From an uncultured Verrucomicrobiota bacterium (GTDB lineage: Bacteria; Verrucomicrobiota; Verrucomicrobiia; Chthoniobacterales; JACTMZ01), in assembly GCA_903953565.1 (NCBI GenBank), contig CAJBKE010000055.1, positions 65,957 to 129,956 on the forward strand: DNA of 64,000 nt. Reading direction: 5' to 3'. Under the pieces are notes generated by a model that saw only the letters and a program-made list of their open reading frames with translations, did no database searches and was not told the DNA's origin. The translations under genes were made by a program, and so were the position numbers. Each line of letters starts with the position of its first letter. Position 1 is the stretch's first letter. Positions 11,721 to 44,751 of the stretch are shown here, piece after piece.

Positions 11721-12137
11721 TTAGTAGCCGCCGCGGTCTCCGCGATCGCGGTATCCGCCGCCACCACCGCCGCCGCCACGATAGCCACCGCCACCGCCGC
11801 CACGGCCTCCGCCGCCGCCACGATAGCCGCCACCGCCGCCACCGCCACCGCGGTAGCCGCCGCCGCCACCGCCGCCTTGCGGACGGTCTTCACGCGGACG
11901 CGCTTCGTTGACTTGGATGGTGCGGCCGTCCATGTCCTGACCATGGAATTTGCTGACGGCTGCGTTGGCTTCCTCGTCGGAGGAGAAAGTGATGAAACCG
12001 AAACCGCGCGAGCGGCCGGTCTGACGATCGACGGCAATCATGACGTCGGTCACGGTGCCACATTGACCGAAGGCGTCGCGGAGCGAGTCTTCGGTGGTGC
12101 TGAAGGGGAGATTCCCCACATAGAGTTTGTTACCCAT
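11721..12137 (-). CDS. RRM (RNP-1) RNA-binding protein with Gly/Arg/Tyr-rich tail
   Basis: KLYVGNLPF (RNP2) and RGFGFITF (RNP1). The C-terminal tail reads GGGGGGYRGGGGGGGGYRGG... Confidence 0.9.
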   Translation of the reverse strand: MGNKLYVGNLPFSTTEDSLRDAFGQCGTVTDVMIAVDRQTGRSRGFGFITFSSDEEANAAVSKFHGQDMDGRTIQVNEARPREDRPQGGGGGGGYRGGGGGGGGYRGGGGGRGGGGGGYRGGGGGGGGYRDRGDRGGY

Positions 12138-18639: not shown

Positions 18640-18725
18640 GCGCCGCCGAACCTAACCGCCCGCACCTCCGCCGTGCAAACCCCTTCGCATTGCCACCGCC
18701 CCGCAACACCCGTAACATCCCACCC

Positions 18726-20456: not shown

Positions 20457-20520
20457 GTAGGGTCGGCTGGCCTCTCCGAGCCGGAGGCTCTACGAGCAGG
20501 AGGCCAGCCGACCGCTGCAG
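20457..20520. repeat. R3-related palindromic element (possible recJ terminator)
   Basis: GGTCGGCTGGCCTC (20461-20474) pairs with GAGGCCAGCCGACC (20500-20513). The pair encloses CTCCGAGCCGGAGG and is followed by T7. The core resembles the copies at 26157, 26491, 30343 and 59479. Confidence 0.5.
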
Positions 20521-20625: not shown

Positions 20626-20698
20626 GGGGTCATAGCTCAGTTGGTAGAGCGCCTCAATGGCATTGAGGAGGTCTGGGGTTCGAATCCCCATGGCTCCA
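20626..20698 (+). tRNA. tRNA-Ala (anticodon GGC)
   Basis: A 73-nt cloverleaf folds by hand: acceptor GGGGTCA/TGGCTCC with the G3:U70 Ala identity pair, anticodon arm CCTCA-atGGCat-TGAGG, T-arm TGGGG-TTCGAAT-CCCCA. CCA is not encoded. Confidence 0.9.
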
Positions 20699-20764
20699 CT
20701 CCCCAGGCTTTTTCGCCCCAAGAAAAAAGCGCGCCAAACCCGCGCCCCGCCATAATTCCTCTTT

Positions 20765-20832
20765 TCGACTCTTCGTCTTTCGTCTCTTGGTCGCTTAGTC
20801 TATCCGCGTCGATCCGCGTTAATCCGTGGCTA
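20765..20832. repeat. TCGTCTY/TTGGTCG heptads followed by an R1 tail (3 x 10-bp ATCCGYGNNN)
   Basis: tcgtctt tcgtctc ttggtcg cttagtc, then atccgcgtcg atccgcgtta atccgtggct a. The tail contains the GT26 stop codon. Confidence 0.6.
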
Positions 20833-21592
20833 AATCTTCTTCGTCCTTCAACCGCGCCACCGGACTTTTGTCCCGGTAACGCGCGACCATTCCAATCAAA
20901 GGCAACGCACTCCAATACCGCGGAATGAACTTCCTCGGCTCGTAAATGCAACGCATGAGCCATCCGAGCCCACTGCGGTCGGCCCACACCGGAATCTTCG
21001 CCTGCGTTCCCGCGAGAAAAGCTACCGCGGCACCCGTGCAAACAATACCCGGACACAGATCAAGCCGCTCCCGCAACCACGCGCCGAGCACTTCCTGCTT
21101 TCCACCCGCAAGATTGAGAAACACCACCCGCGGCTTCGCACTCTTCAGTCTCCGCAGCAGTTCTTCATCCTTGATCGGATACCCGCGGTAAAACGGCGCC
21201 ACATACATATTCCCCTCGTCCACCGGAAAACCCTGCGTCCGCAACCACTCCGCAATCTTCCGCCCCTCCTCCTCCGTCGGCATCACCCAAAACGCCACCC
21301 CCGGCTCCGCCAACGCCGGATCCGCCAAAATCGCCTCGAGAAACTTCAACCCCGAATGCCGCGGCACACTCTTGCCCGTCGCCGCGCGATACACCGCCAC
21401 CATCACTGCGCTATCAGTCAACGCCACATCCGCAGTTTCCACCGCATGCCGATAATCCGGAACACTTCGCAACTCATTGGCCAAGTTCGGACCCGACGGC
21501 GCGACCACGAGCCCGCCACGCCAAGTCTCCGCCACCGCCCCCTCCACAGAGCCGGTAAAAAACGGAATCCCTAAAATTCGTTCGCGCGCCAT
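20819..21592 (-). CDS. WecB/TagA/CpsF-family (GT26) glycosyltransferase
   Basis: ILGIPFFTGS.., VVFLNLAGGKQEVLGAW, GTGAAVAFLAGT and PRWM-like ..LGWLMRCIYEPRK blocks typical of GT26. Confidence 0.8.
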   Translation of the reverse strand: MARERILGIPFFTGSVEGAVAETWRGGLVVAPSGPNLANELRSVPDYRHAVETADVALTDSAVMVAVYRAATGKSVPRHSGLKFLEAILADPALAEPGVAFWVMPTEEEGRKIAEWLRTQGFPVDEGNMYVAPFYRGYPIKDEELLRRLKSAKPRVVFLNLAGGKQEVLGAWLRERLDLCPGIVCTGAAVAFLAGTQAKIPVWADRSGLGWLMRCIYEPRKFIPRYWSALPLIGMVARYRDKSPVARLKDEEDLATD

Positions 21593-21668: not shown

Positions 21669-21813
21669 GGCTAAACCGCCGCCCGTCGGAACCGGAGGCC
21701 CGTCGGCCGTAGATGGCCCCATAGGCAATCACCCGACAGGCGGCACTCCCCCAGTCCGATCGGCTAACGGCCGTTCGGACATATCCGCGTTTATCTGCGT
21801 TAATCCGTGGCTA
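21669..21813. repeat. R1 element copy b (enlarged hairpin 1)
   Basis: GGCTAAACCGCC, then the 12-bp stem GCCGCCCGTCGG/CCGACAGGCGGC around a 44-nt loop, then GGCACTCCCCCAGTCCGATCGGC..GCCGTTCGGAC and three 10-bp units ending AATCCGTGGCTA. The terminal CTA is the stop codon of the next gene. Confidence 0.6.
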
Positions 21814-22377
21814 ATTCCTTCCGTCTTCGCTTTTCCATCGAGGACCTCGTTCGCTCGCCGGATTCCCCGCCACAATAGTATTCGCCGGGACATTCCGCGT
21901 GATCACAGAACCCGCCGCCGCCACCGCTTCTTCCCCGACCTCCACCCCCGGACCGACAAAAACCCCGGCTCCGATCCAAGCGCCACTGCCGATCGTGATC
22001 GGCGCATTGCGGTAGCTGAACTGCGGATCCCGGTAGTCATGGTTACCCGTGCAGAGAAAAGCTCGCTGAGAAATACACGCCTGCGCGCCGATCTTCACCG
22101 GTTCGAAATTCAGGATGAACACTTCTTCCCCGATCCACGCGTGATCACCCACCTTCAGTTTCCACGGGAAATGCACATTCACCCGCGGCTTGATCACCAC
22201 CCCCTCACCGACCTTCGCCCCGAACGCCCGCAGCAGCTTCGCTTTCAAGCCCATCGGCCAAGGCAATGCCGAAAGAAGAAACACACACTTCAGCAAATAC
22301 CACACCGCCTCGACCAACTTTGACCGCCCACGATCCAAGCCCTTCTCTGCATCGAACTGATCCAAACGCGTTTTCAT
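21811..22377 (-). CDS. Hexapeptide-repeat O-acetyltransferase (WcaF-like)
   Basis: LbH repeats IGAQACISQRAFLCTGNH, IGSGAWIGAGVFVGPGVEVGEEAV and the N-terminal membrane-associated segment resemble colanic-acid WcaF-type enzymes. Confidence 0.8.
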   Translation of the reverse strand: MKTRLDQFDAEKGLDRGRSKLVEAVWYLLKCVFLLSALPWPMGLKAKLLRAFGAKVGEGVVIKPRVNVHFPWKLKVGDHAWIGEEVFILNFEPVKIGAQACISQRAFLCTGNHDYRDPQFSYRNAPITIGSGAWIGAGVFVGPGVEVGEEAVAAAGSVITRNVPANTIVAGNPASERGPRWKSEDGRN

Positions 22378-22433: not shown

Positions 22434-22766
22434 TCACAGCAAATCGTCAACTTGTCGCCCCAGCGCCGGCAACTTTCGCATAATAACATCCCAAACGATG
22501 GCATCATCCACGCTGTCGTAGCCGTGAATCAGGCGGTTGCGAAAACTGATCATTTGCCGCGCATCAGGAACCTTCTCGAACACCTCCGGGAATCGATCGC
22601 GGAGGCGCGTGCAGGCTTCGCCTATCACTTCGAACTTCCGCTCCACCGCGGCACGGCATTTTCCATCTCGCGAGTAGGCCTCGAGATCTAGCCCGCGGGT
22701 GAAATCGCCGATATCATCCAGCGCCTGCCGGATATCGAGCAGAAGCTTGCTTCTCTCAGGCAGCAT
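22434..22766 (-). CDS. HepT-like (DUF86, HEPN) ribonuclease toxin
   Basis: The Rx4HxY motif is present in FRNRLIHGYDSV. The size is 110 aa and the gene overlaps the upstream MNT gene by 11 nt. Confidence 0.85.
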   Translation of the reverse strand: MLPERSKLLLDIRQALDDIGDFTRGLDLEAYSRDGKCRAAVERKFEVIGEACTRLRDRFPEVFEKVPDARQMISFRNRLIHGYDSVDDAIVWDVIMRKLPALGRQVDDLL

Positions 22767-23076
22767 AAATCAGCCGACTCGTCTCATCCACGATCCGGCG
22801 AAAAAACGGATTACGTATAGCTCTCGTTGTGACGAGGTCAACTGGACGATGGAAAATCTCCTCAAGCCCCTCCGCCAAGGCCATGTAACGATCGGCAATG
22901 CCGGGTTTGTCGCCATCGACAAAGTCGACTACCACATCGACGTCGCTGCGGGACTCATCAAATTTCTCCGTGGCAGCAGACCCGAAGAGACGAAGCTCAC
23001 GCACCGAAAGGTCGCGGCAGAGCTGCGCGACACGCGACTCGCCGCCTTCGAGAATGCCTTGGAATTCCTTTGTCAT
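22756..23076 (-). CDS. MNT minimal nucleotidyltransferase antitoxin (MntA-like)
   Basis: LRLFGSAATEKFDESRSDVDVVVDF carries the GS..DxD nucleotidyltransferase motif. Confidence 0.85.
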   Translation of the reverse strand: MTKEFQGILEGGESRVAQLCRDLSVRELRLFGSAATEKFDESRSDVDVVVDFVDGDKPGIADRYMALAEGLEEIFHRPVDLVTTRAIRNPFFRRIVDETSRLIYAA

Positions 23077-23158
23077 GTCTACCTAGCTCTCCTTACGCCA
23101 CACCTCACGAGCCCGCAAGCCCATCTCTTTCCTACTCAGAGCCTTCACCTCTGTCTTG

Positions 23159-23254
23159 GCGGGCAAACCGCCTCGAGCCGGGGTCACACGGCTCGAGGCA
23201 TTTCCCCAGTCCGTGCGGCTGTAAAGCCGCTCGAACTAATCCGCGTCTATCCGT
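23159..23254. repeat. R1 element copy c
   Basis: GGCGGGCAAACCG, then the perfect 10-bp hairpin CCTCGAGCCG-gggtcaca-CGGCTCGAGG (23171-23198), then CATTTCCCCAGTCCGTGCGGCT..AGCCGCTCGAAC and decamers. Confidence 0.65.
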
Positions 23255-23323
23255 GTTAATTTGGTCACAGCGGCGACCCGTCTCCGCTTCGCTCCGGCTG
23301 TGGCTAAACAACATGCATTTCAC

Positions 23324-23731
23324 TCAAGTCTCCAAATCAAGTTTCATCCCTCTCAACAGCACTGCTGTCGCCACCCATCCAACCAACGCCCCGCCAATCC
23401 CCCAGCAAGTCGCCGTCCAGTTGAAGTGCCGCGTCAGCACAAAGATCTGCGCGGAGTCCTTGGCAAACGGCGCGAACAGACACAGCGCAAACGACACCGC
23501 CTTCCACTCGGGTCGCAGTCCAGCAACCGCCCCTGCGCCAAAGACCGCCAGCAAAAAGAACGCCGGGAAGTTGCGCGTGTAGGCATGGAGCTCCAGATGA
23601 TACTTCAACCAATGCGGCAGGAATGGAATCGTCATCATCCGTCCGTCCTCACGCAGCGTGATCCAAGCATACGCCACCACCAGCACCACCAGCCCCGCTA
23701 GTGAGATGCCTCTGATAATGCCGGCTGTCAT
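23324..23731 (-). CDS. Hypothetical small membrane protein (about 4 TM helices)
   Basis: The hydrophobic segments GISLAGLVVLVVAYAW, FPAFFLLAVFGAGAVAGL, VSFALCLFAPF and WGIGGALVGWVATAVLL are visible. No recognisable motif. Confidence 0.45.
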   Translation of the reverse strand: MTAGIIRGISLAGLVVLVVAYAWITLREDGRMMTIPFLPHWLKYHLELHAYTRNFPAFFLLAVFGAGAVAGLRPEWKAVSFALCLFAPFAKDSAQIFVLTRHFNWTATCWGIGGALVGWVATAVLLRGMKLDLET

Positions 23732-23750
23732 TCGAATTACGCCAGGCCGC

Positions 23751-24011
23751 TCACCTGTAGACCTCTTTTCGATGAGCCACGCGAATGACCTCGATGATCA
23801 AAACGCGGCCGATTACCTCGTAGATCACGCGGTAGTCACCGACGCGAATACGATAGATGTGCTGGCTACCCGCCAACTTAGTGCATCCATCAGGCAATGG
23901 ATTTTCCGCCAGCGCCTCGACTGCCTCGATAATTCCGGGAATCTCATCGGGCCTGATCTTCCGAAGATCCTTCTTCGTCGATTTACGCCACGTGATCGCG
24001 TAGGAGGCCAT
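23751..24011 (-). CDS. RelE/ParE-family toxin
   Basis: ITWRKSTKKDLRKI.., YRIRVGDYRVIYEV..VLIIEVIRVAHRKEVY is typical of the RelE/ParE fold. Confidence 0.8.
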   Translation of the reverse strand: MASYAITWRKSTKKDLRKIRPDEIPGIIEAVEALAENPLPDGCTKLAGSQHIYRIRVGDYRVIYEVIGRVLIIEVIRVAHRKEVYR

Positions 24012-24186
24012 CGCGCTTCAATTCCGCCAAAAACTCCTCGTGCTTGATGGTTGGTTCCTCACGACGCTCCGCCACGGCAGCAAGATCCTCCATGTCTTCC
24101 ATAAATCTTGCGTAGTCCTCGATCGGCACGATGACAGCCGTCTTAGTCCCGTCTTCATCTGTCAAAAACTGGAGTGCCGTGCTCAT
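23983..24186 (-). CDS. Phd/YefM-like antitoxin
   Basis: DEDGTKTAVIVPIEDYARFMEDMEDLAAVAERREEP. The gene lies upstream of the RelE-type toxin and overlaps it. Confidence 0.65.
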   Translation of the reverse strand: MSTALQFLTDEDGTKTAVIVPIEDYARFMEDMEDLAAVAERREEPTIKHEEFLAELKRDGLLRDHVA

Positions 24187-24306
24187 GATTCACCTATTCG
24201 CATATCCGCCCGGAAAAGCCAGTTCGTTTTACCTCTTTGGAGGGCCAGGCTCCCCCAGAACCTCCGAAAGCCCCCTAGATTGCTCCAATCTCCACGCCGT
24301 TACTTT

Positions 24307-24374
24307 CCACTAGCCACCTTTGCACTCGCCACTGCGCGGTTTACGCGTTCGCTGCCTCCTCCGCGCAGCGCGAC
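24307..24374. repeat. Duplicate of the sequence around the 3' end of the mosaic GT4 gene (heptads CACTAGC CACC.. plus TTACGCGYTCGCTGCCTCC)
   Basis: ccactagccacct..gccactgcgcggtttacgcgttcgctgcctcc here matches tcactagtcacctgccaccgcgcgttttacgcgctcgctgcctcc at 25334-25380. Confidence 0.5.
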
Positions 24375-24602
24375 TCAAGCCGCAAACTCGTAGACTGGCG
24401 CTTCAATGCGCCGCACCGGCACGCTTTTGCCAGCAATGATCGCCTGCAATCTGTCGACGGTTTCGGGAGAGAAGAAAGCTTCGCCGGTTTCCTTCGAGAC
24501 CCGGGCGGGCACATGCTCGACGACAAACACCTCGCCGTCGCGCTCAAGAGTGTAAGTGATGAGTTTGTTTTCCATGGCAACGCGAGTGAAAACGGGCGCC
24601 AT
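24375..24602 (-). CDS. YgiT/MqsA-N-like small protein lacking the zinc cysteines
   Basis: LITYTLERDGEVFVVEHVPARVSKETGEAFFSPETVDRLQAII follows the YgiT-type zinc-ribbon pattern (..VVVxNVPAxVCxxCGExxxxxET..) but has no Cys. The start may instead be MENKL at 24575. Confidence 0.4.
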   Translation of the reverse strand: MAPVFTRVAMENKLITYTLERDGEVFVVEHVPARVSKETGEAFFSPETVDRLQAIIAGKSVPVRRIEAPVYEFAA

Positions 24603-24656
24603 AATTAACTATTGAGCTACTCTCATAGCTGCATGCTATCCGACGGAAGGTATCTT

Positions 24657-24950
24657 TCACGATCCAAATGGTCGCCGTCCGGCATACCGAATATGAGCTA
24701 TAACGACCTCCCCAAGCATAACGCGGTAAAAAATCAGGCATTTCTTGAAGTAAAGAAAACGGAATCCAGGACGAAACCTCCAAATAGGGAAGCGCTCGGG
24801 AGCCCCCTCTAACGACTCCGCCGCATCCAAGATGCCGCGCAAGTATTCGTCGGCGACCACATCACACGCAGAAGCCTCGAAGACGTCTTCACGAACCTTG
24901 ATCAAGTCGCGTGATGCGCGACTGGCGTAACGGACAACGTATTTACTCAA
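24657..24950 (-). CDS. ParE/RelE-family toxin
   Basis: YVVRYASRASRDLIKV.., FRFLYFKKCLIFYRV..VVIAHIRYAGR. There is a 4-nt overlap with the upstream small gene. Confidence 0.75.
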   Translation of the reverse strand: MSKYVVRYASRASRDLIKVREDVFEASACDVVADEYLRGILDAAESLEGAPERFPIWRFRPGFRFLYFKKCLIFYRVMLGEVVIAHIRYAGRRPFGS

Positions 24951-25159
24951 AGCCCCAGTGCCCGCCGGATTTCCTCCGGCGAATGCAGACGTCCGGCAGC
25001 AACATCGGCCTCTGCCTCCGCCAGCGCGGCATTTATTTCTGCACGCTCGCGAGCATCGACATTTTGCAGCGAGAGAAGCTCCTCAGCTGTTTCCTTGACC
25101 AAAGCCAACTCCTCGGCGCTCGCCTCGCTCAAATGCTCAAGAATTTCCAGCGCACTCAC
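24947..25159 (-). CDS. Putative antitoxin partner of ParE
   Basis: 70-aa acidic helical protein immediately upstream of, and overlapping, the ParE-type gene. Confidence 0.55.
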   Translation of the reverse strand: MSALEILEHLSEASAEELALVKETAEELLSLQNVDARERAEINAALAEAEADVAAGRLHSPEEIRRALGL

Positions 25160-25215: not shown

Positions 25216-25325
25216 GGACAAACCGCCTTACACTGAGGTCACTCGGTGCGAGGCATTTCATTAGTCCGAACGGCTGCAAGCCGCTCGGACCCCATCCGTG
25301 GCTATCCGCGTAAATCCGTGGCTAA
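25216..25325. repeat. R1 element copy d
   Basis: GGACAAACCGCC, then the hairpin CCTTACACTGAG-gtca-CTCGGTGCGAGG, then CATTTCATTAGTCCGAACGGCTGCAAGCCGCTCGGAC, then atccgtggct atccgcgtaa atccgtggct a. Confidence 0.65.
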
Positions 25326-25358
25326 AGTCTTTTCACTAGTCACCTGCCACCGCGCGTT

Positions 25359-27128
25359 TTACGCGCTCGCTGCCTCCGCCGCCCGCAATGCCTGCCGCGC
25401 GAAATTCTCACAACTGAACCTTTCCACAATCTCCCGCGACCGCCTCCCCATCTCCGTAATGCCGTCCGTCTCTTGGTCTTTTTGCCTCTTTGTCTTTTGG
25501 TCTGCGATGCGACGAAGCGCTTCGCTCAACGCATCGACCGAAGACGGATCAAAAACAAAGCCGTTGGAGCGTTGCTCCAACGGGCCGTCAGTGGCCGCAA
25601 GTCCTCCCAACTCTGCGCCCTTAGCGAACTTGGCGTGAGGCACCAGATCCTCCGCGCATCCAGCGGCGCGCGAGACGATCACCGGCAAGCCGGCTGCCAT
25701 CGCCTCATTCACCACAAGCCCCCATTCCTCTTTCAAACTCGGCAAGACAAACGCCTCCGCCAACGCATAGAACACCGGGTTCTCCTCAATCTGCCTGAAT
25801 CCATAGAAAAAAACCGCGCCGCGATCGTTTTCTAAGGAGTTTTCAGTGTTCGGTTTACAGTTTTGGATAAGGCCCGTCTCGCAAAGCCTCGGCTCAGCCT
25901 GACTCTGCAGACCCTCGCAGCCTGCTCGGGTCACCGAGCTGGCTGCATTCCCCTCAGTCCGATCGGCTGCAAGCCGCTCGGACTTATCCGTGTTAATCCG
26001 TGTTAATCCGTGGCCCGTCTTTTCCACTCTCACATCTGTCCTATCCACAACGCGCAAGCCCAGTCCCCGCGCCTGCTCCCGCAACGCCCTCTCAAGCTCC
26101 CCACTGCCCACAAAAACTAGCGCCACTGGTGTGTGACGAGTGTCGGTCGTCTCTCTGACTCCATGCTCCCTGCTCCTCTCCGACCCGTAAGGTCTACGAG
26201 CTGGAGGGCCAGCTCCATGCTTTTCACCGCTCGCACGCGCGAATCGCGCGTAGGCCTCGACGAGCGTTGAAAGATTCTTCTTCTCCACCATCCGCCCTAG
26301 ACTCAGGAAATAACGCTGAGGAAGACCGTAGGTCTTCCGAAAATCTGAAAAACCGAGCCGAGGCTTTGCGAGACAGCCCTTAGGCAAATTCTGAAACACT
26401 GAAACACTGTCTTCCCCTCCCTCTGACTGACCCCTGTCCCCCGACCCCTGTCTCCCTTCCTGCTCAGCCCCCGAGGCCTCCGGCCGCTCTTGCTCCACGC
26501 TCCGTGCTCCATGCTCCTCTCCGACCCGTAGGTTCTCCGAGCCGGAGGGCATGCTGCGCACTTCGTCCGCTTTCGCGGCGAAGAGCGCATTATCCACCGC
26601 ATCATACCCCGTGAAAATTTTGTCAGCCGGGATGCCGAGCGAAGCAAAGTGACGCTTGTGCGGCTCGCCGCCGACGAGGGCGGCATCGAACTGCTTCACG
26701 ATCTGACGCTTGATCCAACGCTTCCATCCGGTCGCCTGTTCCGTGCCCGCATGGCTTTCATTCATCATCACCGTCCGGATCCCGAGGGACTTGGCTGCGG
26801 CGAAGAGCGCGAAATAGCGCGCCGGCGAATAGCTCGGAAGAAAAGCCACATCAACCTTCTCCTCACGAAACAACTTCCGCGCCTTCAGGAACACATCGAA
26901 CGGCGAAGCCGCCTCCTCCACCCCATCACACAAAGTCTTGAGTCCAGCACACCTATTACCAGCTACCTGCGACTCGTTACCTTCATTCCACTCATACGTC
27001 GTCGTCGCTCCTGCAATCTGAACCGGAACCACGCGTACACCCTGTTCGGCAGCCGCCCTCTGCGATGCCACCACGCGGGCATGGTGGTAAGGCCCAAACT
27101 GGCCAAAAAAAATAGCGATGCTGCGCAT
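25359..27128 (-). CDS. GT4-family (GT-B) glycosyltransferase carrying several in-frame repeat-element insertions
   Basis: Start set at MRSIAIFFGQFGPYHH; the track start 27263 lies inside R1 copy f. GT4 blocks present: YFLSLGRMVEKKNLSTLVEAY, LVFVGSGELERAL, FVLPSLKEEWGLVVNEAMAAGLPVIVS, NGFVFDP. These blocks are separated by segments built from R1, R3, R4 and heptad DNA. The ORF is 589 aa versus roughly 350-400 aa typical for GT4. Confidence 0.75.
   Translation of the reverse strand: MRSIAIFFGQFGPYHHARVVASQRAAAEQGVRVVPVQIAGATTTYEWNEGNESQVAGNRCAGLKTLCDGVEEAASPFDVFLKARKLFREEKVDVAFLPSYSPARYFALFAAAKSLGIRTVMMNESHAGTEQATGWKRWIKRQIVKQFDAALVGGEPHKRHFASLGIPADKIFTGYDAVDNALFAAKADEVRSMPSGSENLRVGEEHGARSVEQERPEASGAEQEGRQGSGDRGQSEGGEDSVSVFQNLPKGCLAKPRLGFSDFRKTYGLPQRYFLSLGRMVEKKNLSTLVEAYARFARASGEKHGAGPPARRPYGSERSREHGVRETTDTRHTPVALVFVGSGELERALREQARGLGLRVVDRTDVRVEKTGHGLTRINTDKSERLAADRTEGNAASSVTRAGCEGLQSQAEPRLCETGLIQNCKPNTENSLENDRGAVFFYGFRQIEENPVFYALAEAFVLPSLKEEWGLVVNEAMAAGLPVIVSRAAGCAEDLVPHAKFAKGAELGGLAATDGPLEQRSNGFVFDPSSVDALSEALRRIADQKTKRQKDQETDGITEMGRRSREIVERFSCENFARQALRAAEAASA
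25865..26014. repeat. R1 element copy e, complete, inside the GT4 reading frame
   Basis: Hairpin GCAGCCTGCTCGG-gtca-CCGAGCTGGCTGC (25917-25946), then CATTCCCCTCAGTCCGATCGGCTGCAAGCCGCTCGGAC, then atccgtgtta atccgtgtta atccgtggcc. It is translated as ..GHGLTRINTDKSERLAADRTEGNAASSVTRAGCEG.. Confidence 0.7.
26157..26220. repeat. R3 element copy b (in frame in GT4)
   Basis: gactccatgctccctgctcctctccgacccgtaaggtctacgagctggagggccagctccatgc, read as KHGAGPPARRPYGSERSREHGV. Confidence 0.65.
26391..26554. repeat. R4 heptad block (CTGAAAC../CCCTGTC..) fused to R3 copy c (in frame in GT4)
   Basis: ctgaaacactgaaacactgtcttcccctccctctgactgacccctgtcccccgacccctgtctccc.. followed by ..tgctccacgctccgtgctccatgctcctctccgacccgtaggttctccgagccggagggcatgc. 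It is read as SGSENLRVGEEHGARSVEQ..GRQGSGDRGQSEGGEDSVSVFQ. Confidence 0.65.
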
Positions 27129-27175: not shown

Positions 27176-27286
27176 GGACAAACCGTCGCCTGTCGAGGCC
27201 ATCCGACAGGCGGCATTCCCCCCCTGTCCGATCAGCTGCAAGCCGCTCGGACCTTATCCTCATCCATCCGCGTCAATCCGTGGCTA
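27176..27286. repeat. R1 element copy f (fills the Wzy-GT4 intercistronic gap)
   Basis: GGACAAACCGT, then the perfect 9-bp hairpin CGCCTGTCG-aggccatc-CGACAGGCG (27187-27212), then GCATTCCCCCCCTGTCCGATCAGCTGCAAGCCGCTCGGAC, then decamers ending AATCCGTGGCTA. The tail contains the Wzy stop codon. Confidence 0.7.
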
Positions 27287-28688
27287 CAACTCCCCGGATC
27301 GACCTTCTCTGATTCCGCGCCGACCCTGCATTCAGCTTCGCGCTACGCCCAAACCACCAAGCTAACGCCACGATCGGAATCATCGCGTAAAGCATCTGGT
27401 AAAAATACTGCCAGAGGAAAAACCGCGTCAGGAACATCGCGTTCACCGTCACAATCCCAATCAAGCAATATTGGACGTAGCCACGCGGCATGGTGAGCAC
27501 ATACCAGTCAAGCCACGACAGGAGATATCCGAGCATGAACATCGAAAGCAGCATCCACAGCAAACCGCCATCGCGCAGAAACATTCCCGCGATTCCAGGC
27601 GAGTAAGGCGCACCTCGCGTGAACGTCATGTCCATCGTTATTCCCTGCTTCGGCTTGCCCTGCCACAGTGCCCGCGGCACGAAATGCAGGGGCACATATA
27701 GCCAAGACCACGCATAAGGCTTGTATGCTGGCTCGGTCTCTTTCGCCGCGACAAACGTGTCGAAGATATTCATGTCACCATCTGAATCGTAAAACTTCCA
27801 GTAAGCCTCACCTAAAGTGCGTTCTTCAAACACTGAATTAACCATGCCCTCTTCCGCTATCCGCTCATTCTCGGCGCCGCGAGTCTGCCCTAAATATTGG
27901 AAGAAGGGTTGCAGCACCACGATCGGTAAAATCAACCACGCATACCCCACCCTTCCTTGAAGCCTTTGTAAAACGGCAATGCCGGCAATCATCACTCCCG
28001 CGACGTAAAAACCTCGAAATAACGTTACATCACGCATCAGCCACGTGAACATTAGGAATAGCACCACCGAAACACTGAGCACCATCACGGTTCCTAGTGT
28101 CTTGCGTCGTAGGAATCCCTCGAACAGCACGACCACGGTTATGATGTGCACTGCCTGCAGCGGCATGGGCAAATCATAAACATACGCGCCAAAAGCGCTG
28201 CCGTAGAGCGAGCGCCCCCCCCGCGCGAGATAGAACATCACAGGCAACGTCGTCACCTGAAAAGCCAGCAATGCGGCACACACCTTTTGGCTCACCAAGG
28301 GTCGCAAGCTTTCCGCATTGTTCAGCGCACGACGCCGCCGGAGCCACCTAATGTGTAGACGTGGAAAAATGGCTGCCCCCAAAGCAAAGCAAACAAGCGC
28401 AGCGCTAGCCCACCATAAACCGTCGGTTATCTCATTCAACCCTACCCGCATTTGGAATAACCGCGTGAACAGCGTGTAATCTTTCTCCAACAACATATAA
28501 ACAGGCCGCACTCCAAAAAACAGAAACGACATAAATATGAACGCACCTGCCCCTGTCACCTGCTTACGATGGATTTCGCCGAGCAAAAGCACGAGTTGAC
28601 TCCCTACCAGCAGCCAGACCGAAGCCACCGTTCCAACAAGTGGATAAGCAGCCAGCAGGAGGAAAACAGCGGCAAAAACAAAGTTCAT
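27273..28688 (-). CDS. Polytopic membrane protein, probable O-antigen/EPS repeat-unit polymerase (Wzy-like)
   Basis: More than 10 predicted TM helices with one large hydrophilic loop (..ENERIAEEGMVNSVFEERTLGEAYWKFYDSDGD..). The locus context includes a Wzx and GT genes. No strict motif was found. Confidence 0.6.
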   Translation of the reverse strand: MNFVFAAVFLLLAAYPLVGTVASVWLLVGSQLVLLLGEIHRKQVTGAGAFIFMSFLFFGVRPVYMLLEKDYTLFTRLFQMRVGLNEITDGLWWASAALVCFALGAAIFPRLHIRWLRRRRALNNAESLRPLVSQKVCAALLAFQVTTLPVMFYLARGGRSLYGSAFGAYVYDLPMPLQAVHIITVVVLFEGFLRRKTLGTVMVLSVSVVLFLMFTWLMRDVTLFRGFYVAGVMIAGIAVLQRLQGRVGYAWLILPIVVLQPFFQYLGQTRGAENERIAEEGMVNSVFEERTLGEAYWKFYDSDGDMNIFDTFVAAKETEPAYKPYAWSWLYVPLHFVPRALWQGKPKQGITMDMTFTRGAPYSPGIAGMFLRDGGLLWMLLSMFMLGYLLSWLDWYVLTMPRGYVQYCLIGIVTVNAMFLTRFFLWQYFYQMLYAMIPIVALAWWFGRSAKLNAGSARNQRRSIRGVVATD

Positions 28689-29823: not shown

Positions 29824-31050
29824 TTAGTCTCCCGCAGCGTAGCGCAGCAGAGCTGGCGCAAGATGCCTTGGGTGAAACTTGTCCGGAACACGTGCATTCG
29901 ACTGGAGCTTTTCCAGAATCTCCCGATCGCGCACAAGCGCCATGATCGCCTCGGCGATCGCTTCAGGCGAGATCTCCGGCAGCACTAGGCCATTCACGCA
30001 GTCTTCCACCACGAGCCCGCAATGCGTGGAAGCAACCACTGGCAGCCCATGGCCCAGCGCCTCAAGCTGCGTTAGACCAAAGCCATCCGAAAGGGTGGGA
30101 AAAAGGAATACATCAGACGCCCGATACAGCCTCTCGACCGTCGCTTTGTCCACCGGACCAAGAAAGCGCACGTTCGACAGCTGCGAGATCTCGTCCGGAA
30201 TCTTTACCCCAAGCGGACCAGCGAAGGTGAAGTCCACCGGCTCATTCTTCAGCATCCTGATCGCATCGAACAGCTGCCCTACCCCCTTCCGCAAAATCAC
30301 GCTCCCGAGAAACAAGGCCCGCAGCCGCGTATCGGGTCTCTTCTCCATGCTCCACGCTCCTCTCCGACCCGTAGGTTCTCCGAGCCGGAGGACATGCTCC
30401 ATGCTGCCGCTGGCCTCATAGACCAGCGGCACCTCCACGAGCTTCGCGGCACTTACCCCCGCTTCGATCCAGTTTCTTTTCGACCACTGGGAGTTCACGA
30501 TGATCTTATCCGCCATCTCGATTTCCCGCCGGAGGCCATCCCAATACTCTTTGGGCGCATCGATAGTTTGTCCGAGGTCCAAGGCCAGGTAGTTCGCCGC
30601 CGCGCGGCGCGTGATATCTTCCTCCATCCAGGCGAGATCGATCAGATCGAGAACGCAACGCATACCCTTCCTGCGCGCCACTTCAAAAGGCCACTGGGCG
30701 TTGTAGCTGTAAGAGAAAACTGTTTTCCCATCGACCACCTCAAGTTGATTAGCGCACCATTTGCCAAACCAGCTGATACGATACATACACGTCTGCCACG
30801 AACTCATGTGCTGCAACCTTACCCGAGCCTCGTAAACGAAGCGTCCCGCATTGGCGCGACGCACAAGTGCATCCGGAATCTGTGTGCTCCGGCGTGCTGC
30901 AATATTCGGGGCCAACGGCTTGAGTAGCTTTGCCTCACCAGCCGTCACCCAACTGTCCGCGAGCAGTGCAGAGAGCTTGCCTTCTTTGTGCAAAGCCGCC
31001 GGCACGGCGTAGTGCTCCCGCGATCCTAGTTGGCAGCAGATCCAAGACAT
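29824..31050 (-). CDS. GT4-family glycosyltransferase with one in-frame R3 insertion
   Basis: ALFLGSVILRKGVGQLFDA, VFLFPTLSDGFGLTQLEALGHGLPVVAS, NGLVLP. The insert MEHVLRLGEPTGRRGAWSME lies just before the C-terminal domain. Confidence 0.8.
   Translation of the reverse strand: MSWICCQLGSREHYAVPAALHKEGKLSALLADSWVTAGEAKLLKPLAPNIAARRSTQIPDALVRRANAGRFVYEARVRLQHMSSWQTCMYRISWFGKWCANQLEVVDGKTVFSYSYNAQWPFEVARRKGMRCVLDLIDLAWMEEDITRRAAANYLALDLGQTIDAPKEYWDGLRREIEMADKIIVNSQWSKRNWIEAGVSAAKLVEVPLVYEASGSMEHVLRLGEPTGRRGAWSMEKRPDTRLRALFLGSVILRKGVGQLFDAIRMLKNEPVDFTFAGPLGVKIPDEISQLSNVRFLGPVDKATVERLYRASDVFLFPTLSDGFGLTQLEALGHGLPVVASTHCGLVVEDCVNGLVLPEISPEAIAEAIMALVRDREILEKLQSNARVPDKFHPRHLAPALLRYAAGD
30343..30404. 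repeat. R3 element copy d (in frame in GT4)
   Basis: ctccatgctccacgctcctctccgacccgtaggttctccgagccggaggacatgctccatgc. Confidence 0.65.
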
Positions 31051-42365: not shown

Positions 42366-42500
42366 TTTTTGATAGATCACGGGGTGATCAGCATGGAGCG
42401 TGGAGCGCGGAGCCTGGAGCGGTTCCGGCTGAACACTGCAAACTGAACACTGGAAACTCCTCTTCTGTTCCTCCGTAAGAGCCAGTCTCCTAAGTCAGCG
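42366..42500. repeat. Composite spacer: GATCAC-ggg-GTGATC hairpin, (NNNGGAG)4 heptads, CTGAACA/CTGCAAA heptads
   Basis: gatcacggggtgatc agcatggag cgtggag cgcggag cctggag.. ctgaaca ctgcaaa ctgaaca ctggaaa. The first 45 nt recur at 46021-46060. Confidence 0.55.
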
Positions 42501-43170: not shown

Positions 43171-44447
43171 ACGCGACATGCTGAAATTACCTGATCCGCA
43201 ATCTGATCCCAGCTGTAACTCTTCTCCACCAACTCTCTCCCCCTCAATCCCCTTTCCGCGCGCTCCGCGTCCTCTGCGGTTAGAGCACTTCTTAAAGTCT
43301 TTTCTACGGAATCTAGTTCCGGACGACTCTCCCAAGCGCCACCCGCGGCCGTGAGTTCCGGGAAATTGCACTCATCCGTCTGCACCACCGGAATGCGATG
43401 CGCCGCCGCTTCCAGCACCGCCATCGGGAATCCCTCGGAATAGGAGGGCAACACAAACAAATCCGCCGTGCGTAACAGCGCATGCTTCTCCGGCCCTGAA
43501 ACCGCCGGATGGATCCAACACGTCTCCGAGCATCCACAGTCCGCAATCATCTTCTCCACCGTCGCCTGATATCCCCCTTCATCCGGACCCACGATCAACA
43601 ACTCCCAATCCGGAAACTCTTTGCTCAACTTCCCCCAAGCCGGCACCAACAAATCCAGCCCCTTCTTCGCATGAATCCGGGACAGGAAAAGCAGGCGCTT
43701 GGGCCGGCGCCGCCGCATCCAAGCGCCGTAGCGGGTAGAAAGTTGCGAGTCACTGGTCTTTGTATCTCCGACTGAAACACTGTCCTTCCGAAACACCGAG
43801 GCCCCCGGCCAACCCTGTCCCCTTCCTCCTGTCTCCTGTTTCCCTTCGTGCGCGTCGAGCTCATCGACTTCGTCGATGTCGATGCCGTTCGGAATCACAT
43901 GCACGACCGCATGCGATCCGACGACCGCACGAATCTGCTCCGCCTCCTTGTTCGACACAGCGCGCCACCAACGGACGTGAGCGATGTTTTTATCTTCGAA
44001 CAGCCAATGCGCGAGGCGCTTTTTACCCCGCGAGCGGCGGAGGATCCACGGATCGAAAAATCCCTGCGGATGGTAAACCAGCGGCTTGCCACGTTTCCGC
44101 GCCTCGCCCCCGAGCCACATATTGGTCCAAACGTAGAGCCCATGACCATGAAACCACTCCGCCTGTTCCACCGCCTCCGCCGCAAGTCGCTTCAACTCCG
44201 GTGCATAACAAGCCTTCGCCGGCCCCTTGCGAACCCCCTGGATGACATCGGGCCAAGTCCGATGAAAATCCGCCGCTCGCGTCGCGAGCAGCAAGGATTT
44301 CGAGGCATGGGCAAAATCCGAACCCTGACTACTGCCACCTGACGACTGCCAACTCTTACCTCGCATAGCGAGGTGAAGAGACAACGCCGCCTGCCCCAAC
44401 CCCGCCCCCTGCAGCGGCTCGAGCGATTGAACAAAATGTAAGTGCAT
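43167..44447 (-). CDS. GT4-family glycosyltransferase with one in-frame R4 insertion
   Basis: RLLFLSRIHAKKGLDLL, LFVLPSYSEGFPMAVLEAAAHRIPVVQT. The insert KQETGGRGQGWPGASVFRKDSVSVGDTKTSDSQ lies before the C-terminal domain. Confidence 0.8.
   Translation of the reverse strand: MHLHFVQSLEPLQGAGLGQAALSLHLAMRGKSWQSSGGSSQGSDFAHASKSLLLATRAADFHRTWPDVIQGVRKGPAKACYAPELKRLAAEAVEQAEWFHGHGLYVWTNMWLGGEARKRGKPLVYHPQGFFDPWILRRSRGKKRLAHWLFEDKNIAHVRWWRAVSNKEAEQIRAVVGSHAVVHVIPNGIDIDEVDELDAHEGKQETGGRGQGWPGASVFRKDSVSVGDTKTSDSQLSTRYGAWMRRRRPKRLLFLSRIHAKKGLDLLVPAWGKLSKEFPDWELLIVGPDEGGYQATVEKMIADCGCSETCWIHPAVSGPEKHALLRTADLFVLPSYSEGFPMAVLEAAAHRIPVVQTDECNFPELTAAGGAWESRPELDSVEKTLRSALTAEDAERAERGLRGRELVEKSYSWDQIADQVISACRV
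43766..43846. repeat. R4 heptad element (in frame in GT4)
   Basis: ctccgactgaaacactgtccttccgaaacaccgaggcccccggccaaccctgtccccttcctcctgtctcctgtttccc is related to 26391-26480. Confidence 0.6.
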
Positions 44448-44448
44448 T

Positions 44449-44503
44449 GCGCGTGCTTCACCCGCGCAGTGGCGAGTACGAAGGTTAAAGGTTAAAAGTA
44501 ACG
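44449..44503. repeat. F1: 55-nt leader element directly upstream of the GT4 ATG (direct repeat of F2)
   Basis: The hairpin gcgcgtg-cttca-cccgcgc, then ..ggttaaaggttaaaagtaacg. It is about 80 percent identical to 44752-44806. Confidence 0.6.
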
Positions 44504-44740: not shown

Positions 44741-44751
44741 CATTCAGCAGG

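What the first reader, a model, noticed from the sequence alone, without database searches (positions are those of the whole stretch)
25359..27128. A GT4 glycosyltransferase ORF carrying roughly 200 codons of in-frame repeat-element DNA
All canonical GT-B/GT4 blocks are present and in order: N-domain MRSIAIFFGQFGPYHH..GGEPHKRHF, YFLSLGRMVEKKN, LVFVGSGELERAL, FVLPSLKEEWGLVVNEAMAAGLPVIVS and NGFVFDP. They are separated by segments that are copies of DNA also found non-codingly in this window. (i) 26391-26554 is R4 heptads plus R3, lying between the two Rossmann domains. (ii) 26157-26220 is R3. (iii) 25865-26014 is a complete R1 with both hairpins and the decamer tail, read as GHGLTRINTDKSERLAADRTEGNAASS. 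It splits the strand-helix unit between ..GLGLRVV and VFFYGF... (iv) about 25463-25500 is TCGTCTC/TTGGTCT-type heptads read as KTKRQKDQETDG. No insertion introduces a stop or a frameshift, which gives 589 aa against a typical 350-400. This parallels the in-frame palindromic elements (RPEs) known from Rickettsia genes, but here it involves several unrelated repeat families within a single surface-polysaccharide enzyme.
Basis: partly seen in the sequence, partly recalled or inferred. Interest (0 to 1): 0.8.

Follow-up and report, generated by a model that had tools for sequence, protein, structure and literature searches.

The report
Glycosyltransferase gene riddled with in-frame repeats
About a third of a sugar-transferring enzyme gene in a Verrucomicrobia-type bacterium is short repeat DNA that sits in the protein's loops without breaking the reading frame, a free-living and unusually dense parallel to the "selfish DNA inside genes" known from Rickettsia.

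Summary
The minus-strand ORF 25359-27128 encodes a 589-aa GT4/GT-B glycosyltransferase. An insert-free ortholog has 375 aa.

- **Extra residues.** Roughly 190-215 extra residues lie at five sites. AlphaFold models these as low-confidence coil between well-modelled core elements.
- **Origin of the inserts.** They are built from repeat modules: a ~95-nt hairpin-plus-decamer element (R1), a 33-nt hairpin (R3 core) embedded in GGAGCAT heptads, other short palindromes and several heptad arrays.
- **R1.** It has five non-coding copies nearby, all at 3' ends of genes.
- **R3.** It is read in three different frames at three sites, and each copy is a clean 33-nt insertion relative to a relative's allele.
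- **Selection.** The core has dN/dS of 0.12-0.20. The identical protein is on 7 contigs, at least four of them from different assemblies.
- **Family pattern.** Homologs show eight hypervariable sites with mosaic repeat content. Some relatives carry the gene split at the linker by toxin-antitoxin cargo, with both halves still constrained.

R4 has no clear non-coding copy here. The R1 insertion is shared by a subclade rather than private to this genome.

Verdict: a new, unusually dense variant of the known RPE-like phenomenon. The insertion mechanism is unknown.

The parts
25359..27128 (-). GT4 / GT-B glycosyltransferase ORF of 589 aa. The true start is at 27128; the upstream ORF extension to 27263 runs into an R1 copy.
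26343..26552 (-). Site i: inter-domain linker, aa 193-262, modelled as low-confidence coil and made of several repeat modules.
   Evidence: linker is 22-108 aa across homologs, 88 here
26518..26550 (-). R3 core copy 1, a 33-nt hairpin read as ..PSGSENLRVGE... It is absent from the P0002 allele.
26491..26517 (-). GGAGCAT-type heptad array (TGCTCCA on the + strand) flanking R3 core copy 1.
26462..26495 (-). Roughly 30-nt palindromic module (..GAGCGGCCGGAGGCCTCGGGGGCT..) present here and absent from P0002.
26391..26460 (-). R4: CTGAAACA repeats and GACCCCTGTCCCCC 14-mers (heptad-type), read as GRQGSGDRGQSEGGEDSVSVFQ.
26355..26374 (+). R5 20-mer GAGCCGAGGCTTTGCGAGAC, in inverted orientation relative to the copy at 25876-25895. 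Read as ..LAKPRLG...
26159..26221 (-). Site ii: R3 copy 2 with flanking heptads. The core is about 26179-26211 and is read as PPARRPYGSER. The core is absent from P0002.
25925..26020 (-). Site iii: full R1 element (decamers CACGGATTAA, then a 12-13-bp hairpin, then the distal part), read as GHGLTRINTDKSERLAADRTEGNAASSVTR in the only frame of R1 that is open.
25876..25895 (-). R5 20-mer, direct orientation, read as AEPRLCET.
25836..25866 (-). AAAACTG-type heptads read as QNCKPNTENS. The same module type (ENCKLNTEHS) occurs at several sites in homologs, and CTGAACA heptads lie non-codingly at 42429-42458.
25581..25640 (-). Site v: variable loop, aa 497-516. It is short here and up to 75 aa of repeat modules in homologs.
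25458..25503 (-). Site iv: AGACCAA/GAGACGA-type heptads read as KTKRQKDQETDG.
25264..25328 (-). Non-coding R1 copy 31 nt downstream of the GT stop codon.
27226..27290 (-). R1 copy between the upstream 471-aa gene and the GT. It supplies that gene's last codons and its TGA stop.
21748..21817 (-). R1 copy at the 3' end of the hexapeptide-transferase gene. The stop codon TAG lies inside R1.
23209..23269 (-). Non-coding R1 copy downstream of the 135-aa gene.
20798..20836 (-). R1 decamer part at the 3' end of the WecG-like gene (stop TAA inside it), followed by TCGTCTC/TTGGTC heptads at 20763-20792.
30343..30405 (-). R3 copy 3 (core 30361-30393), in frame in the linker of the neighbouring 408-aa GT4 and read as LRLGEPTGRRG. 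It is an exact 33-nt insertion relative to the L051 ortholog.
43813..43839 (-). CCCTGTC heptads (R4-like) in frame in the linker of a third GT4 (43167-44447, 426 aa).

Best explanation
The ORF is a real, selectively maintained GT4 (GT-B fold, EX7E-type) glycosyltransferase. It belongs to a polysaccharide-biosynthesis operon in a Chthoniobacterales-like Verrucomicrobiota genome.

About 190-215 of its 589 codons are not ancestral enzyme sequence. They are short repeat DNA of the kinds that otherwise fill the 3' spacers of genes in this lineage:
- a ~95-nt decamer-plus-hairpin element (R1);
- a 33-nt hairpin (R3 core) that sits inside GGAGCAT heptad arrays;
- other 20-30-nt palindromes;
- several heptanucleotide arrays.

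**Shown.** These modules occupy the inter-domain linker and peripheral loops. They are gained, lost and swapped between close alleles. They are read in whatever frame happens to be open, and they leave the catalytic core under purifying selection.

**Inferred.**
- The encoded peptides are disordered passengers without a function of their own.
- Selection acts only as a filter, so the copies that persist keep the frame, lack stops and sit where the fold tolerates extra chain.
- Palindromic modules enter by a hairpin or single-strand-based, target-specific insertion. R3 always lands in GGAGCAT arrays without a target duplication.
- Heptad arrays change by slippage.
- Recombination between alleles shuffles the modules.
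For: **(1) Fold.**
- The AF2 model has pLDDT above 90 for the core and low values at aa 200-259, 301-333, 363-437, 499-515 and 545-556.
- Foldseek finds MshA, GlgM, BshA and PimA (357-400 aa) with target-normalised TM-scores of 0.67-0.77.
- The EX7E residues E467, E468 and E475 are invariant in 64 homologs.

**(2) Insert-free ortholog.** P0112 has 375 aa and 60% identity in the N domain, with gaps exactly at the five sites. Loop lengths across 120 homologs range over 22-108, 12-114, 32-120, 16-75 and 28-50 aa.

**(3) Filled versus empty sites.**
- Within a 95%-identical tract shared with P0002 there are 34 substitutions and four repeat indels: 33, 30 and 33 nt in the window allele, and 30 nt in P0002.
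- The neighbouring GT408 carries an exact 33-nt R3 insertion relative to its ortholog.
- No R3 core occurs in L051, L003 or L005.

**(4) The peptide is not what is conserved.**
- R3 is read in three different frames at three sites.
- R5 is read in both orientations.
- dN/dS is 0.48-0.63 in the insert zones against 0.12-0.20 in the core.

**(5) A filter is at work.**
- R1's 5' end, TTAGCCACGGATTRA, carries stops in two frames, and the GT copy is read in the third.
- The inserts have 0 stops in the used frame, against 4 and 11 in the others.

**(6) The non-coding counterparts are real.** Five R1 copies sit at gene 3' ends in the same orientation. The hairpins fold.

**(7) Not an artefact.** The identical protein is on 7 contigs, four of which were read and come from different assemblies.

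**(8) The phenomenon is general.** Two more GT4 genes in the window and an unrelated GT4 family (P0126-P0128) carry the same modules in frame.
Against: - There is no evidence that the full-length protein is made.
- No transposase or other mobilising enzyme was identified, and no target-site duplication or terminal inverted repeat was seen, so the insertion mechanism is inference.
- R3 is low-copy. The window has 3 copies, all coding, and the 25-mer has only 2 exact matches in the JGI metagenome collection.
- R4 has no clear non-coding copy in the window.
- The same eight sites are occupied again and again across the family. R1 at site iii is 97% identical between two alleles over its 100 aligned nt, and identical over most of that stretch, while its flanks are 46-59% identical. 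Selection for having something there, at protein or RNA level, could also produce that pattern.
- dN/dS in the insert zones is confounded by aligning non-homologous modules.
Confidence: 0.75

Rival explanations
1. The inserts are selected features, either at protein or at RNA level. At protein level they would be disordered, charged linkers and loops that tune membrane association, partner binding or domain closure. At RNA level they would be hairpins or heptads inside the message that act as binding, processing or pausing sites in the operon mRNA.
For: - The same eight positions are occupied across dozens of homologs.
- R1 at site iii is nearly identical between alleles whose flanks have diverged.
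- Non-coding R1 copies have a fixed position and orientation at gene 3' ends, which suggests an RNA-level role.
- One hairpin copy (L003 7867) changes on both arms in a compensatory way.
Against: - The content at each site is a mosaic and is interchangeable. For example, R1 is replaced by AGACCAA heptads in L005.
- The same DNA is read in different frames.
- An insert-free ortholog exists.
- The inserts are modelled as low-confidence coil.
- Insert zones have relaxed dN/dS.
- Recurrent occupancy is also what one expects if these are simply the only tolerant sites.
Confidence: 0.12
2. The gene is a contingency (phase-variable) locus. Gain or loss of single 7-nt units in the intragenic heptad arrays would switch this surface-polysaccharide enzyme on and off.
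For: - Heptad arrays lie inside a polysaccharide glycosyltransferase.
- Heptad unit numbers differ between alleles.
- Heptanucleotide repeats are reported to be the most abundant long simple-sequence repeats in many bacteria and prone to slippage (Mrazek 2007, as summarised in PMC4679880).
Against: - The arrays are short and imperfect, at most 3.9 units with 80% matches.
- The identical ORF is present on 7 contigs, at least four of them from separate assemblies, with no frameshifted variant on record.
- Most of the inserted DNA is not tandem repeat.
Confidence: 0.05
3. The gene is a decaying pseudogene that has not yet acquired a stop codon.
For: It carries an unusual load of foreign DNA. Related loci are disrupted by cargo genes.
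Against: - Core dN/dS is 0.12-0.20.
- All catalytic motifs are invariant.
- The used frame has 0 stops over 210 insert codons, with P about 4e-4.
- Dozens of homologs with different insert sets keep the ORF.
- Even the split alleles keep both halves at dN/dS 0.12-0.13.
Confidence: 0.04
4. The ORF is an assembly artefact, with repeats wrongly collapsed into or joined within it.
For: Repeat-rich metagenomic DNA is prone to misassembly.
Against: The same 589-aa protein is called on 7 contigs, and the four that were read come from different assemblies and samples. Orthologous inserts occur at the same sites in many other assemblies.
Confidence: 0.01

Closest known systems
Rickettsia palindromic elements (RPEs; Ogata et al. 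2000, 2002, as summarised in PMC10969869 and PMC1779305)
   Same: Interspersed hairpin-forming repeats found both between genes and in frame inside functional genes. They sit at positions compatible with the fold. The host genes stay intact and constrained.
   Different: - RPEs are 100-150 bp and are known from Rickettsia and related obligate intracellular alphaproteobacteria. Each is described as encoding a conserved peptide.
- Here the host is a Verrucomicrobiota-type genome.
- The modules are 20-95 nt plus heptad arrays, and belong to several unrelated families.
- One module (R3) is read in three frames.
- Up to five sites are filled in one gene and eight in the family, making up about a third of the ORF.
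- No sequence relationship to RPEs is known.
REP/REPIN palindromes mobilised by RAYT transposases, and palindrome-associated elements of the IS200/IS605 type (PMC3733652, PMC3116915; the mechanism is my own knowledge)
   Same: Short GC-rich imperfect palindromes near gene 3' ends. The R3 core is a 33-nt hairpin that inserts at a fixed sequence context (GGAGCAT arrays) without a target duplication, as expected for single-strand hairpin transposition.
   Different: - No RAYT or TnpA gene was identified.
- Copy number is low.
- All R3 copies in the window are intragenic.
- The GTAG tetranucleotide lies in the loop rather than at the end of the palindrome.
Other small repeats fused to or inside ORFs: BRE of Bordetella, ERIC/YPAL/RU of enterobacteria, BOX/RUP/SPRITE of pneumococcus (PMC3184786, PMC10969869)
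   Same: Small intergenic repeats that sometimes lie inside coding sequences, or that extend or terminate ORFs at their 3' ends. R1 supplies the stop codon of three neighbouring genes.
   Different: Those cases are usually one element per gene. Here one enzyme holds a mosaic of families, and its homologs show systematic site-specific turnover.
Heptanucleotide tandem repeats: TAACTGA repeats of Beggiatoaceae and cyanobacteria (PMC4679880), and cyanobacterial STRR heptamers (my own knowledge)
   Same: Tandem 7-nt units of several sequence types that are lineage-specific and mostly intergenic.
   Different: Here short, degenerate arrays also lie inside ORFs. They are read through in frame as 7-aa periodic peptides such as EHGAWSM and KTKRQKDQET.
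Simple-sequence-repeat phase-variable glycosyltransferases of Haemophilus, Neisseria and Campylobacter (PMC12721329 for the principle; the examples are my own knowledge)
   Same: Repeats whose unit length is not a multiple of three, inside surface-polysaccharide glycosyltransferase genes.
   Different: Arrays here are short and imperfect, and no frameshifted alleles were seen.
Two-polypeptide GT-B enzymes such as Alg13/Alg14 (my own knowledge)
   Same: In relatives (L003, L005) the N and C Rossmann domains are separate genes that both stay under purifying selection.
   Different: The split here is recent, lies within one gene family, and is caused by insertion of toxin-antitoxin-like cargo into the repeat-filled linker. 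The window allele is unsplit.

Membership tests
GT4 glycosyltransferase (GT-B fold) | C-terminal Glycos_transf_1 domain above the curated threshold | tested here: met
   PF00534 scores 82.4 bits against a cut-off of 26.4, at aa 438-550. The first half of the domain is separated from it by inserts ii and iii.
GT4 glycosyltransferase (GT-B fold) | Two Rossmann-like domains with an N-terminal GT4-type domain | tested here: met
   Pfam Glyco_transf_4 is borderline at 28.1 bits against 28.5. The AF2 model (pTM 0.79) matches MshA, GlgM, BshA and PimA with target-normalised TM-scores of 0.67-0.77.
GT4 glycosyltransferase (GT-B fold) | EX7E motif in the C domain | tested here: met
   E467-E468...E475 (EEWGLVVNE) is invariant in 64 homologs.
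GT4 glycosyltransferase (GT-B fold) | Glycosyl transfer activity, donor and acceptor | not testable with these tools
   The only support is operon context, with other GT4 genes, a WecG-like gene and an acetyltransferase.
RPE-like in-frame palindromic elements | The same repeat family occurs both intergenically and inside ORFs of one genome | tested here: met
   - R1 has 5 non-coding copies and 1 in-ORF copy.
- Heptad types also occur in both settings.
- R3 is met only weakly, since all 3 copies are coding.
RPE-like in-frame palindromic elements | Hairpin-forming (palindromic) sequence | tested here: met
   R1 has a 12-13-bp stem, R3 core 10-12 bp and R6 12 bp. Z-scores for R1 and R3 range from -0.5 to -3.6.
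RPE-like in-frame palindromic elements | Insertion preserves the ORF and sits where the fold tolerates it | tested here: met
RPE-like in-frame palindromic elements | Element of 100-150 bp in Rickettsiales, homologous to RPE families | tested here: not met
   The modules are 20-95 nt. The relatives are Chthoniobacterales and Verrucomicrobiae MAGs. Rfam gives no hit except a tRNA. Homology to RPE models was not tested directly.
RPE-like in-frame palindromic elements | One reading frame and one conserved peptide per element family | tested here: inconclusive
   R1 fits, since only one of its frames is open and that frame is the one used. R3 does not fit, since it is read in three frames.
REP/REPIN (RAYT-mobilised) | 20-40-nt GC-rich imperfect palindrome | tested here: met
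   The R3 core is 33 nt.
REP/REPIN (RAYT-mobilised) | High-copy and predominantly extragenic | tested here: not met
   There are 3 copies in 64 kb, all intragenic. The 25-mer has 2 exact matches in JGI metagenome contigs.
REP/REPIN (RAYT-mobilised) | Cognate RAYT gene in the genome | not tested
   Only a 64-kb window was available and no systematic domain scan of all ORFs was run.
MITE | Terminal inverted repeats and target-site duplication | tested here: not met
   Filled-versus-empty comparisons show clean 33-nt and 30-nt differences without flanking duplication. At site iii, R1 is exchanged for heptads between fixed junctions.
Simple-sequence-repeat contingency locus | Long, near-perfect tract, with length variants that shift the frame | tested here: not met
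   Arrays have at most 3.9 units at 80% matches. The protein is identical on 7 contigs. Population depth was not examined.

The most novel reading that the evidence does not exclude
This Verrucomicrobiota lineage may harbour translation-compatible mini-elements. The R3 core has a fixed length of 33 nt (11 codons), is stop-free in all three sense frames in two of its three copies, and inserts specifically into GGAGCAT heptad arrays. All three sites are filled in this genome and none in the L051 relative, which suggests a recent burst. Such elements would spread inside genes without penalty. The repeat-filled GT-B linkers would then act as landing pads where whole toxin-antitoxin cassettes integrate, producing functional two-chain glycosyltransferases. 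If so, this is an active, previously undescribed mode of intragenic mobile DNA and gene fission in free-living bacteria.
Probability: 0.25. Interest if true: 0.75.

Novelty: new variant of a known kind. Interest (0 to 1): 0.6.

Why it matters
In-frame colonisation of genes by small repeats is mostly discussed as a curiosity of Rickettsia and a few pathogens. This case shows several things at once.

- **Scale and setting.** It occurs in an uncultured, free-living Verrucomicrobiota lineage. One enzyme carries about one third passenger sequence from several repeat families, with family-wide turnover at eight defined sites.
- **A map of tolerant sites.** The pattern is in effect a natural insertion-tolerance map of the GT-B fold, useful for engineering loops and linkers of glycosyltransferases.
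- **A warning for annotation.** Oversized glycosyltransferases and repeat-derived peptides in metagenomic protein sets need not be new domains.
- **A test case for mobility.** The filled and empty R3 sites allow a test for targeted hairpin-element insertion.
- **Gene fission.** The split alleles show a route from linker invasion to fission of a two-domain enzyme.

Tried and rejected
- **Protein search with a composite R1 peptide.** It was replaced by a full phmmer scan of representatives. That scan found R1 peptides with identifiable domains only in GT4 proteins.
- **Genome-collection scan with the R1 18-mer.** Of 44 stretches, most are chance 18-20-nt matches. True copies occur only in Chthoniobacterales, Chthoniobacter and Verrucomicrobiae MAGs (L016, L032, L047, L027). 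The window's own genome is evidently not a representative in that collection.
- **Metagenome scan with the R3 25-mer.** Only two matches were found: one is an ortholog with R3 at the same site, the other a probable non-coding copy in heptads. R3 therefore cannot be called a high-copy family.
- **Integron-like cassette idea (R1 as an attC-like boundary of the toxin-antitoxin modules).** Rejected, because R1 does not flank each cassette and has no attC architecture.
- **R1 as an intrinsic terminator.** Rejected, because no T-run follows the hairpin and the scan does not flag it.
- **Pfam 'GT4-conflict' hit.** It covers only 42 residues around the EX7E motif and was treated as generic GT4 similarity.
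- **Technical failures.** A strict period-7 autocorrelation scan and a fuzzy-regex scan failed for technical reasons. TRF and blastn-short were used instead.
- **Literature search.** No paper on repeats in Chthoniobacterales coding sequences was found.
Full report
**1. The ORF and the enzyme**

A longer version reaching 27263 begins inside a repeat copy (MRIRSERLAADRT...) and is not supported by homologs or by public gene calls.

- Pfam finds Glycos_transf_1 at aa 438-550 (E 3.5e-23) and a borderline Glyco_transf_4 at aa 73-179.
- An AlphaFold2 model built on 64 homologs has pTM 0.79. The core has pLDDT above 90. Low confidence is confined to aa 200-259, 301-333, 363-437, 499-515 and 545-556.
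- Foldseek against the PDB returns retaining GT4 enzymes (MshA, GlgM, BshA, PimA, HepE) of 357-400 aa, with target-normalised TM-scores of 0.67-0.77.
- The EX7E residues E467, E468 and E475 are invariant in the family.

The protein is therefore a GT-B/GT4 enzyme with about 200 surplus residues.

**2.

A homolog alignment places low-occupancy segments at aa 200-250, 298-321, 375-422 and 549-557. These correspond to window 26379-26531, 26166-26237, 25863-26006 and 25458-25484.

*R1.* This is a ~95-nt element: three decamers of the type CACGGATTAA, then the hairpin GTCCGAGCGGCTTGCAGCCGATCGGAC, then a distal part. Besides the in-ORF copy at 25925-26020, the window holds copies at 20798-20836, 21748-21817, 23209-23269, 25264-25328 and 27226-27290, all in one orientation. 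The hairpin 27-mer has 3 matches at up to 3 mismatches, against 0.00 expected.

*R3.* This is a 33-nt hairpin core flanked by GGAGCAT heptads. A 36-mer occurs twice exactly (26513-26548 and 30356-30391, 0.00 expected) and once at 89% identity (26172-26207).

*Other modules.*
- R5, a 20-mer, is present twice in the ORF in opposite orientations.
- A 30-nt palindrome lies in the linker.
- Several heptad types are present (TGCTCCA, CCCTGTC, AAAACTG and AGACCAA classes).
- The site iv heptads match non-coding 49018-49074.
- GGAGCAT and CTGAACA heptads lie non-codingly at 42390-42458.

*Systematic check.* A comparison of all intergenic DNA against all credible ORFs in the window singles out this gene (six hits) and one other GT4. 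A hit to a glycine-rich ORF and two hits to a probably spurious ORF remain.

*Corrections.* The third R3 copy is not non-coding. It lies in frame in the linker of the neighbouring 408-aa GT4. R4 has no clear non-coding counterpart in the window. Its relative is in the linker of a third GT4 (43167-44447).

**3. Not an artefact and not a pseudogene**

- The identical 589-aa protein is called on 7 contigs. The four that were read come from different assemblies and samples.
- The insert zones have no stop in the used frame, against 4 and 11 in the other two frames. The chance of that from base composition is about 4e-4.
- Core codons give dN/dS of 0.12-0.20 against three relatives. Insert zones give 0.48-0.63, an imperfect figure because the modules aligned there are not always homologous.

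**4. Insert-free, differently filled and split alleles**

*Insert-free ortholog.* P0112 (375 aa) aligns over both domains, with 60% identity in the N domain, and has gaps exactly at the five sites.

*Variable loop lengths.* Across the 120 best homologs (Chthoniobacterales MAGs where named), spacing between conserved anchors varies as follows:

| Site | Range across homologs (aa) | This protein (aa) |
|---|---|---|
| Linker (i) | 22-108 | 88 |
| Site ii | 12-114 | 43 |
| Site iii | 32-120 | 97 |
| Site v | 16-75 | 26 |
| Site iv | 28-50 | 37 |

Three N-domain sites also vary. They are empty or minimal here and filled in relatives. The window protein exceeds the family minima by 193 aa.

*Mosaic content.* The content at each site is a mosaic of a small vocabulary of repeat-derived peptides: DQKTKRPKDQET, EHGAGGMEHG, SGDRGQSEGGEDSVSVF, EHLSTLN, ENCKLNTEHS, LNPQRSTLN, TDGGDAAATLK and HGLTRINTDKSERLAADRT.

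*DNA-level comparison.* The closest allele (P0002, L051) is a mosaic of blocks 46-97% identical to the window gene. Inside a 95%-identical tract of 736 aligned nt there are 34 substitutions and four clean repeat indels. The R3 core is present here and absent there at both sites (33 nt each). A 30-nt palindrome is present here only, and another 30-nt palindrome is present there only. The neighbouring GT408 shows the same pattern, an exact 33-nt R3 core inserted into a GGAGCAT array relative to its L051 ortholog. No R3 core is present in L051, L003 or L005. At site iii, one relative has AGACCAA heptads in place of R1 between the same junctions, with no target duplication.

*Split alleles.* In L003 and L005 the gene is split at the linker. 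The N half ends in heptads followed by a hairpin (R6). Then come 1.2-1.5 kb of different cargo: ParE-like and HTH pairs in one, a phosphoribosyltransferase-like gene plus DUF4926 in the other. The C half then starts at MDYRKAYGLP. Between these two split alleles both halves have dN/dS of 0.12-0.13 at dS 0.47-0.73, so the two-gene form appears functional.

**5. The peptide is a passenger**

- R3 is read in three different frames: SGSENLRVGEEHG, PPARRPYGSERS and LRLGEPTGRRGAW.
- R5 is read in both orientations.
- Non-coding R1 copies sit at or just after the stop codon of the upstream gene. The R1 5' end, TTAGCCACGGATTRA, provides the actual stop codon of three genes.
- That motif has stops in two frames. 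The copy inside the GT is read in the third frame, which is the only open one. This is what a survival filter would produce.
- The hairpins are predicted to form. They are not followed by T-runs and are not flagged as intrinsic terminators.

**6. Breadth**

- True R1 copies outside this locus were found only in Chthoniobacterales, Chthoniobacter and Verrucomicrobiae MAGs. There they look intergenic and clustered.
- A full phmmer scan of 1.8 billion representatives with the 34-aa R1 peptide found it in frame in homologs of this enzyme and in an unrelated GT4 family, at two other positions (P0126-P0128). P0128 is also full of the other modules.
- The R3 25-mer has only two exact matches in the JGI metagenome collection: an ortholog with R3 at the same site, and a probable non-coding copy embedded in heptads.

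R1 is thus a lineage-restricted, locally clustered 3'-end element, and R3 is a low-copy hairpin tied to GGAGCAT arrays.

**7. Interpretation**

*Best supported.* A functional GT4 has had its linker and peripheral loops colonised by the lineage's intergenic repeat modules. Selection acts only as a filter for frame, absence of stops and structural tolerance.

*Shown.*
- location in low-confidence loops;
- turnover between alleles;
- use of several reading frames;
- constraint on the core;
- non-coding counterparts.

*Inferred.*
- The peptides have no function of their own.
- Palindromes enter by a targeted hairpin or single-strand mechanism. R3 is always in GGAGCAT arrays, always 33 nt, and has no target duplication.
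- Heptads change by slippage.
- Allelic recombination shuffles the modules.

*Rivals.*
- Selected disordered linkers or RNA-level roles. Recurrent occupancy and the near-identity of R1 between diverged alleles keep this alive.
- Phase variation. Disfavoured, because the arrays are short and imperfect and no variant alleles were seen.
- Pseudogene or artefact. Effectively excluded.

**8. Comparison with what is known**

In-frame small repeats are documented for Rickettsia RPEs, Bordetella BRE, enterobacterial ERIC/RU elements and pneumococcal BOX/RUP/SPRITE (PMC10969869, PMC3184786, PMC1779305). Heptanucleotide arrays are known as lineage-specific, mostly intergenic repeats (PMC4679880).

This case works like RPEs but is not a member of that family. 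The host, the sizes and the use of several families and frames all differ. It partly resembles REP and IS200/IS605-type hairpin elements, but copy number is low and no transposase is known. I found no description of this for Verrucomicrobiota.

I rate it a new variant of a known kind. It is of moderate to good interest because of its density, the multi-family mosaic, the clean filled and empty sites, and the link to gene fission.

Noticed in passing
L005:1909-5017 and L003:1651-5047 (relatives of window 25359-27128): In these relatives the same glycosyltransferase is split at the inter-domain linker into two genes. They are separated by 1.2-1.5 kb of different cargo: ParE-like and HTH pairs in one, a phosphoribosyltransferase-like gene plus DUF4926 in the other. 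Both halves keep dN/dS of 0.12-0.13 between the two split alleles, which suggests a functional two-chain GT-B.
   Followed up: partly
window 27273-27290, 21811-21817, 20819-20836: The 5' motif of R1 (TTAGCCACGGATTRA) supplies the last codons and the stop codon of three genes: the 471-aa membrane protein, the hexapeptide transferase and the WecG-like transferase. All non-coding R1 copies sit at 3' ends of genes in the same orientation, and all six copies in the window lie within 20.8-27.3 kb.
   Followed up: partly
window 22434-25159: Several toxin-antitoxin-like pairs (antitoxin + ParE-like, RelB-like + ParE, MNT + HepT) are interleaved with the polysaccharide genes. Orthologous loci (L003, L005, L051) carry different small cassettes at the same intergenic positions.
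   Followed up: partly
window 30343-30405 (in ORF 29824-31050) and 43813-43839, 44324-44351 (in ORF 43167-44447): Two further GT4 genes of the cluster carry in-frame repeat modules. GT408 has R3 in its inter-domain linker. GT426 has CCCTGTC-type heptads in its linker and a second repeat array nearer its N-terminus.
   Followed up: yes
window 25359-25382 vs 24341-24364: The 3' end of the GT is the codons for AAEAASA plus a hairpin CGCGCG-TAAAA-CGCGCG with the stop codon in the loop. It is duplicated downstream of the 75-aa gene. Related hairpin-plus-AAGGTTA-heptad units lie at 44444-44506 and 44747-44809.
   Followed up: partly
window 25561-25583: A perfect 10-bp hairpin followed by CTTTGTTTTT (terminator-like) lies inside the ORF, over the conserved LEQRSNGFVF codons. 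The stem is not conserved in the P0002 allele.
   Followed up: no
L051:5935-5966, L005:2799-2830, L003:2518-2549; in frame at L005:2214-2237: Another hairpin element (R6, GGCCTGATGGAGTAGTTTCACCTCCACAGGCC) lies a few to ~35 nt downstream of the stop codon of the gene before it in three loci. The same DNA is read in frame as GGVVSPPQAE in the N domain of several homologs.
   Followed up: partly
window gene 25359-27128 vs L051:4001-5899: Nucleotide identity between the two alleles is a mosaic, 46-97% in blocks of 54 to about 830 nt, with block boundaries near repeat modules. This suggests frequent recombination within this gene.
   Followed up: partly
window 20460-20515: A strong 14-bp-stem hairpin (z = -4.6) lies downstream of ORF 18690-20417 and just upstream of a tRNA gene (20626-20698). 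It contains an R3-like inner palindrome, CTCCGAGCCGGAGG.
   Followed up: no
window 11755-11877: A long CCGCCA/CCACGATAG-type repeat whose period is a multiple of three (glycine-rich on the opposite strand), in an ORF-dense region. It is unrelated to the finding.
   Followed up: no
window 49058-49140 and 49644-49726: An 83-nt direct repeat, 96% identical, with copies 586 nt apart in a probably non-coding region. AGACTAAG-type short repeats lie next to it at 49012-49053.
   Followed up: no
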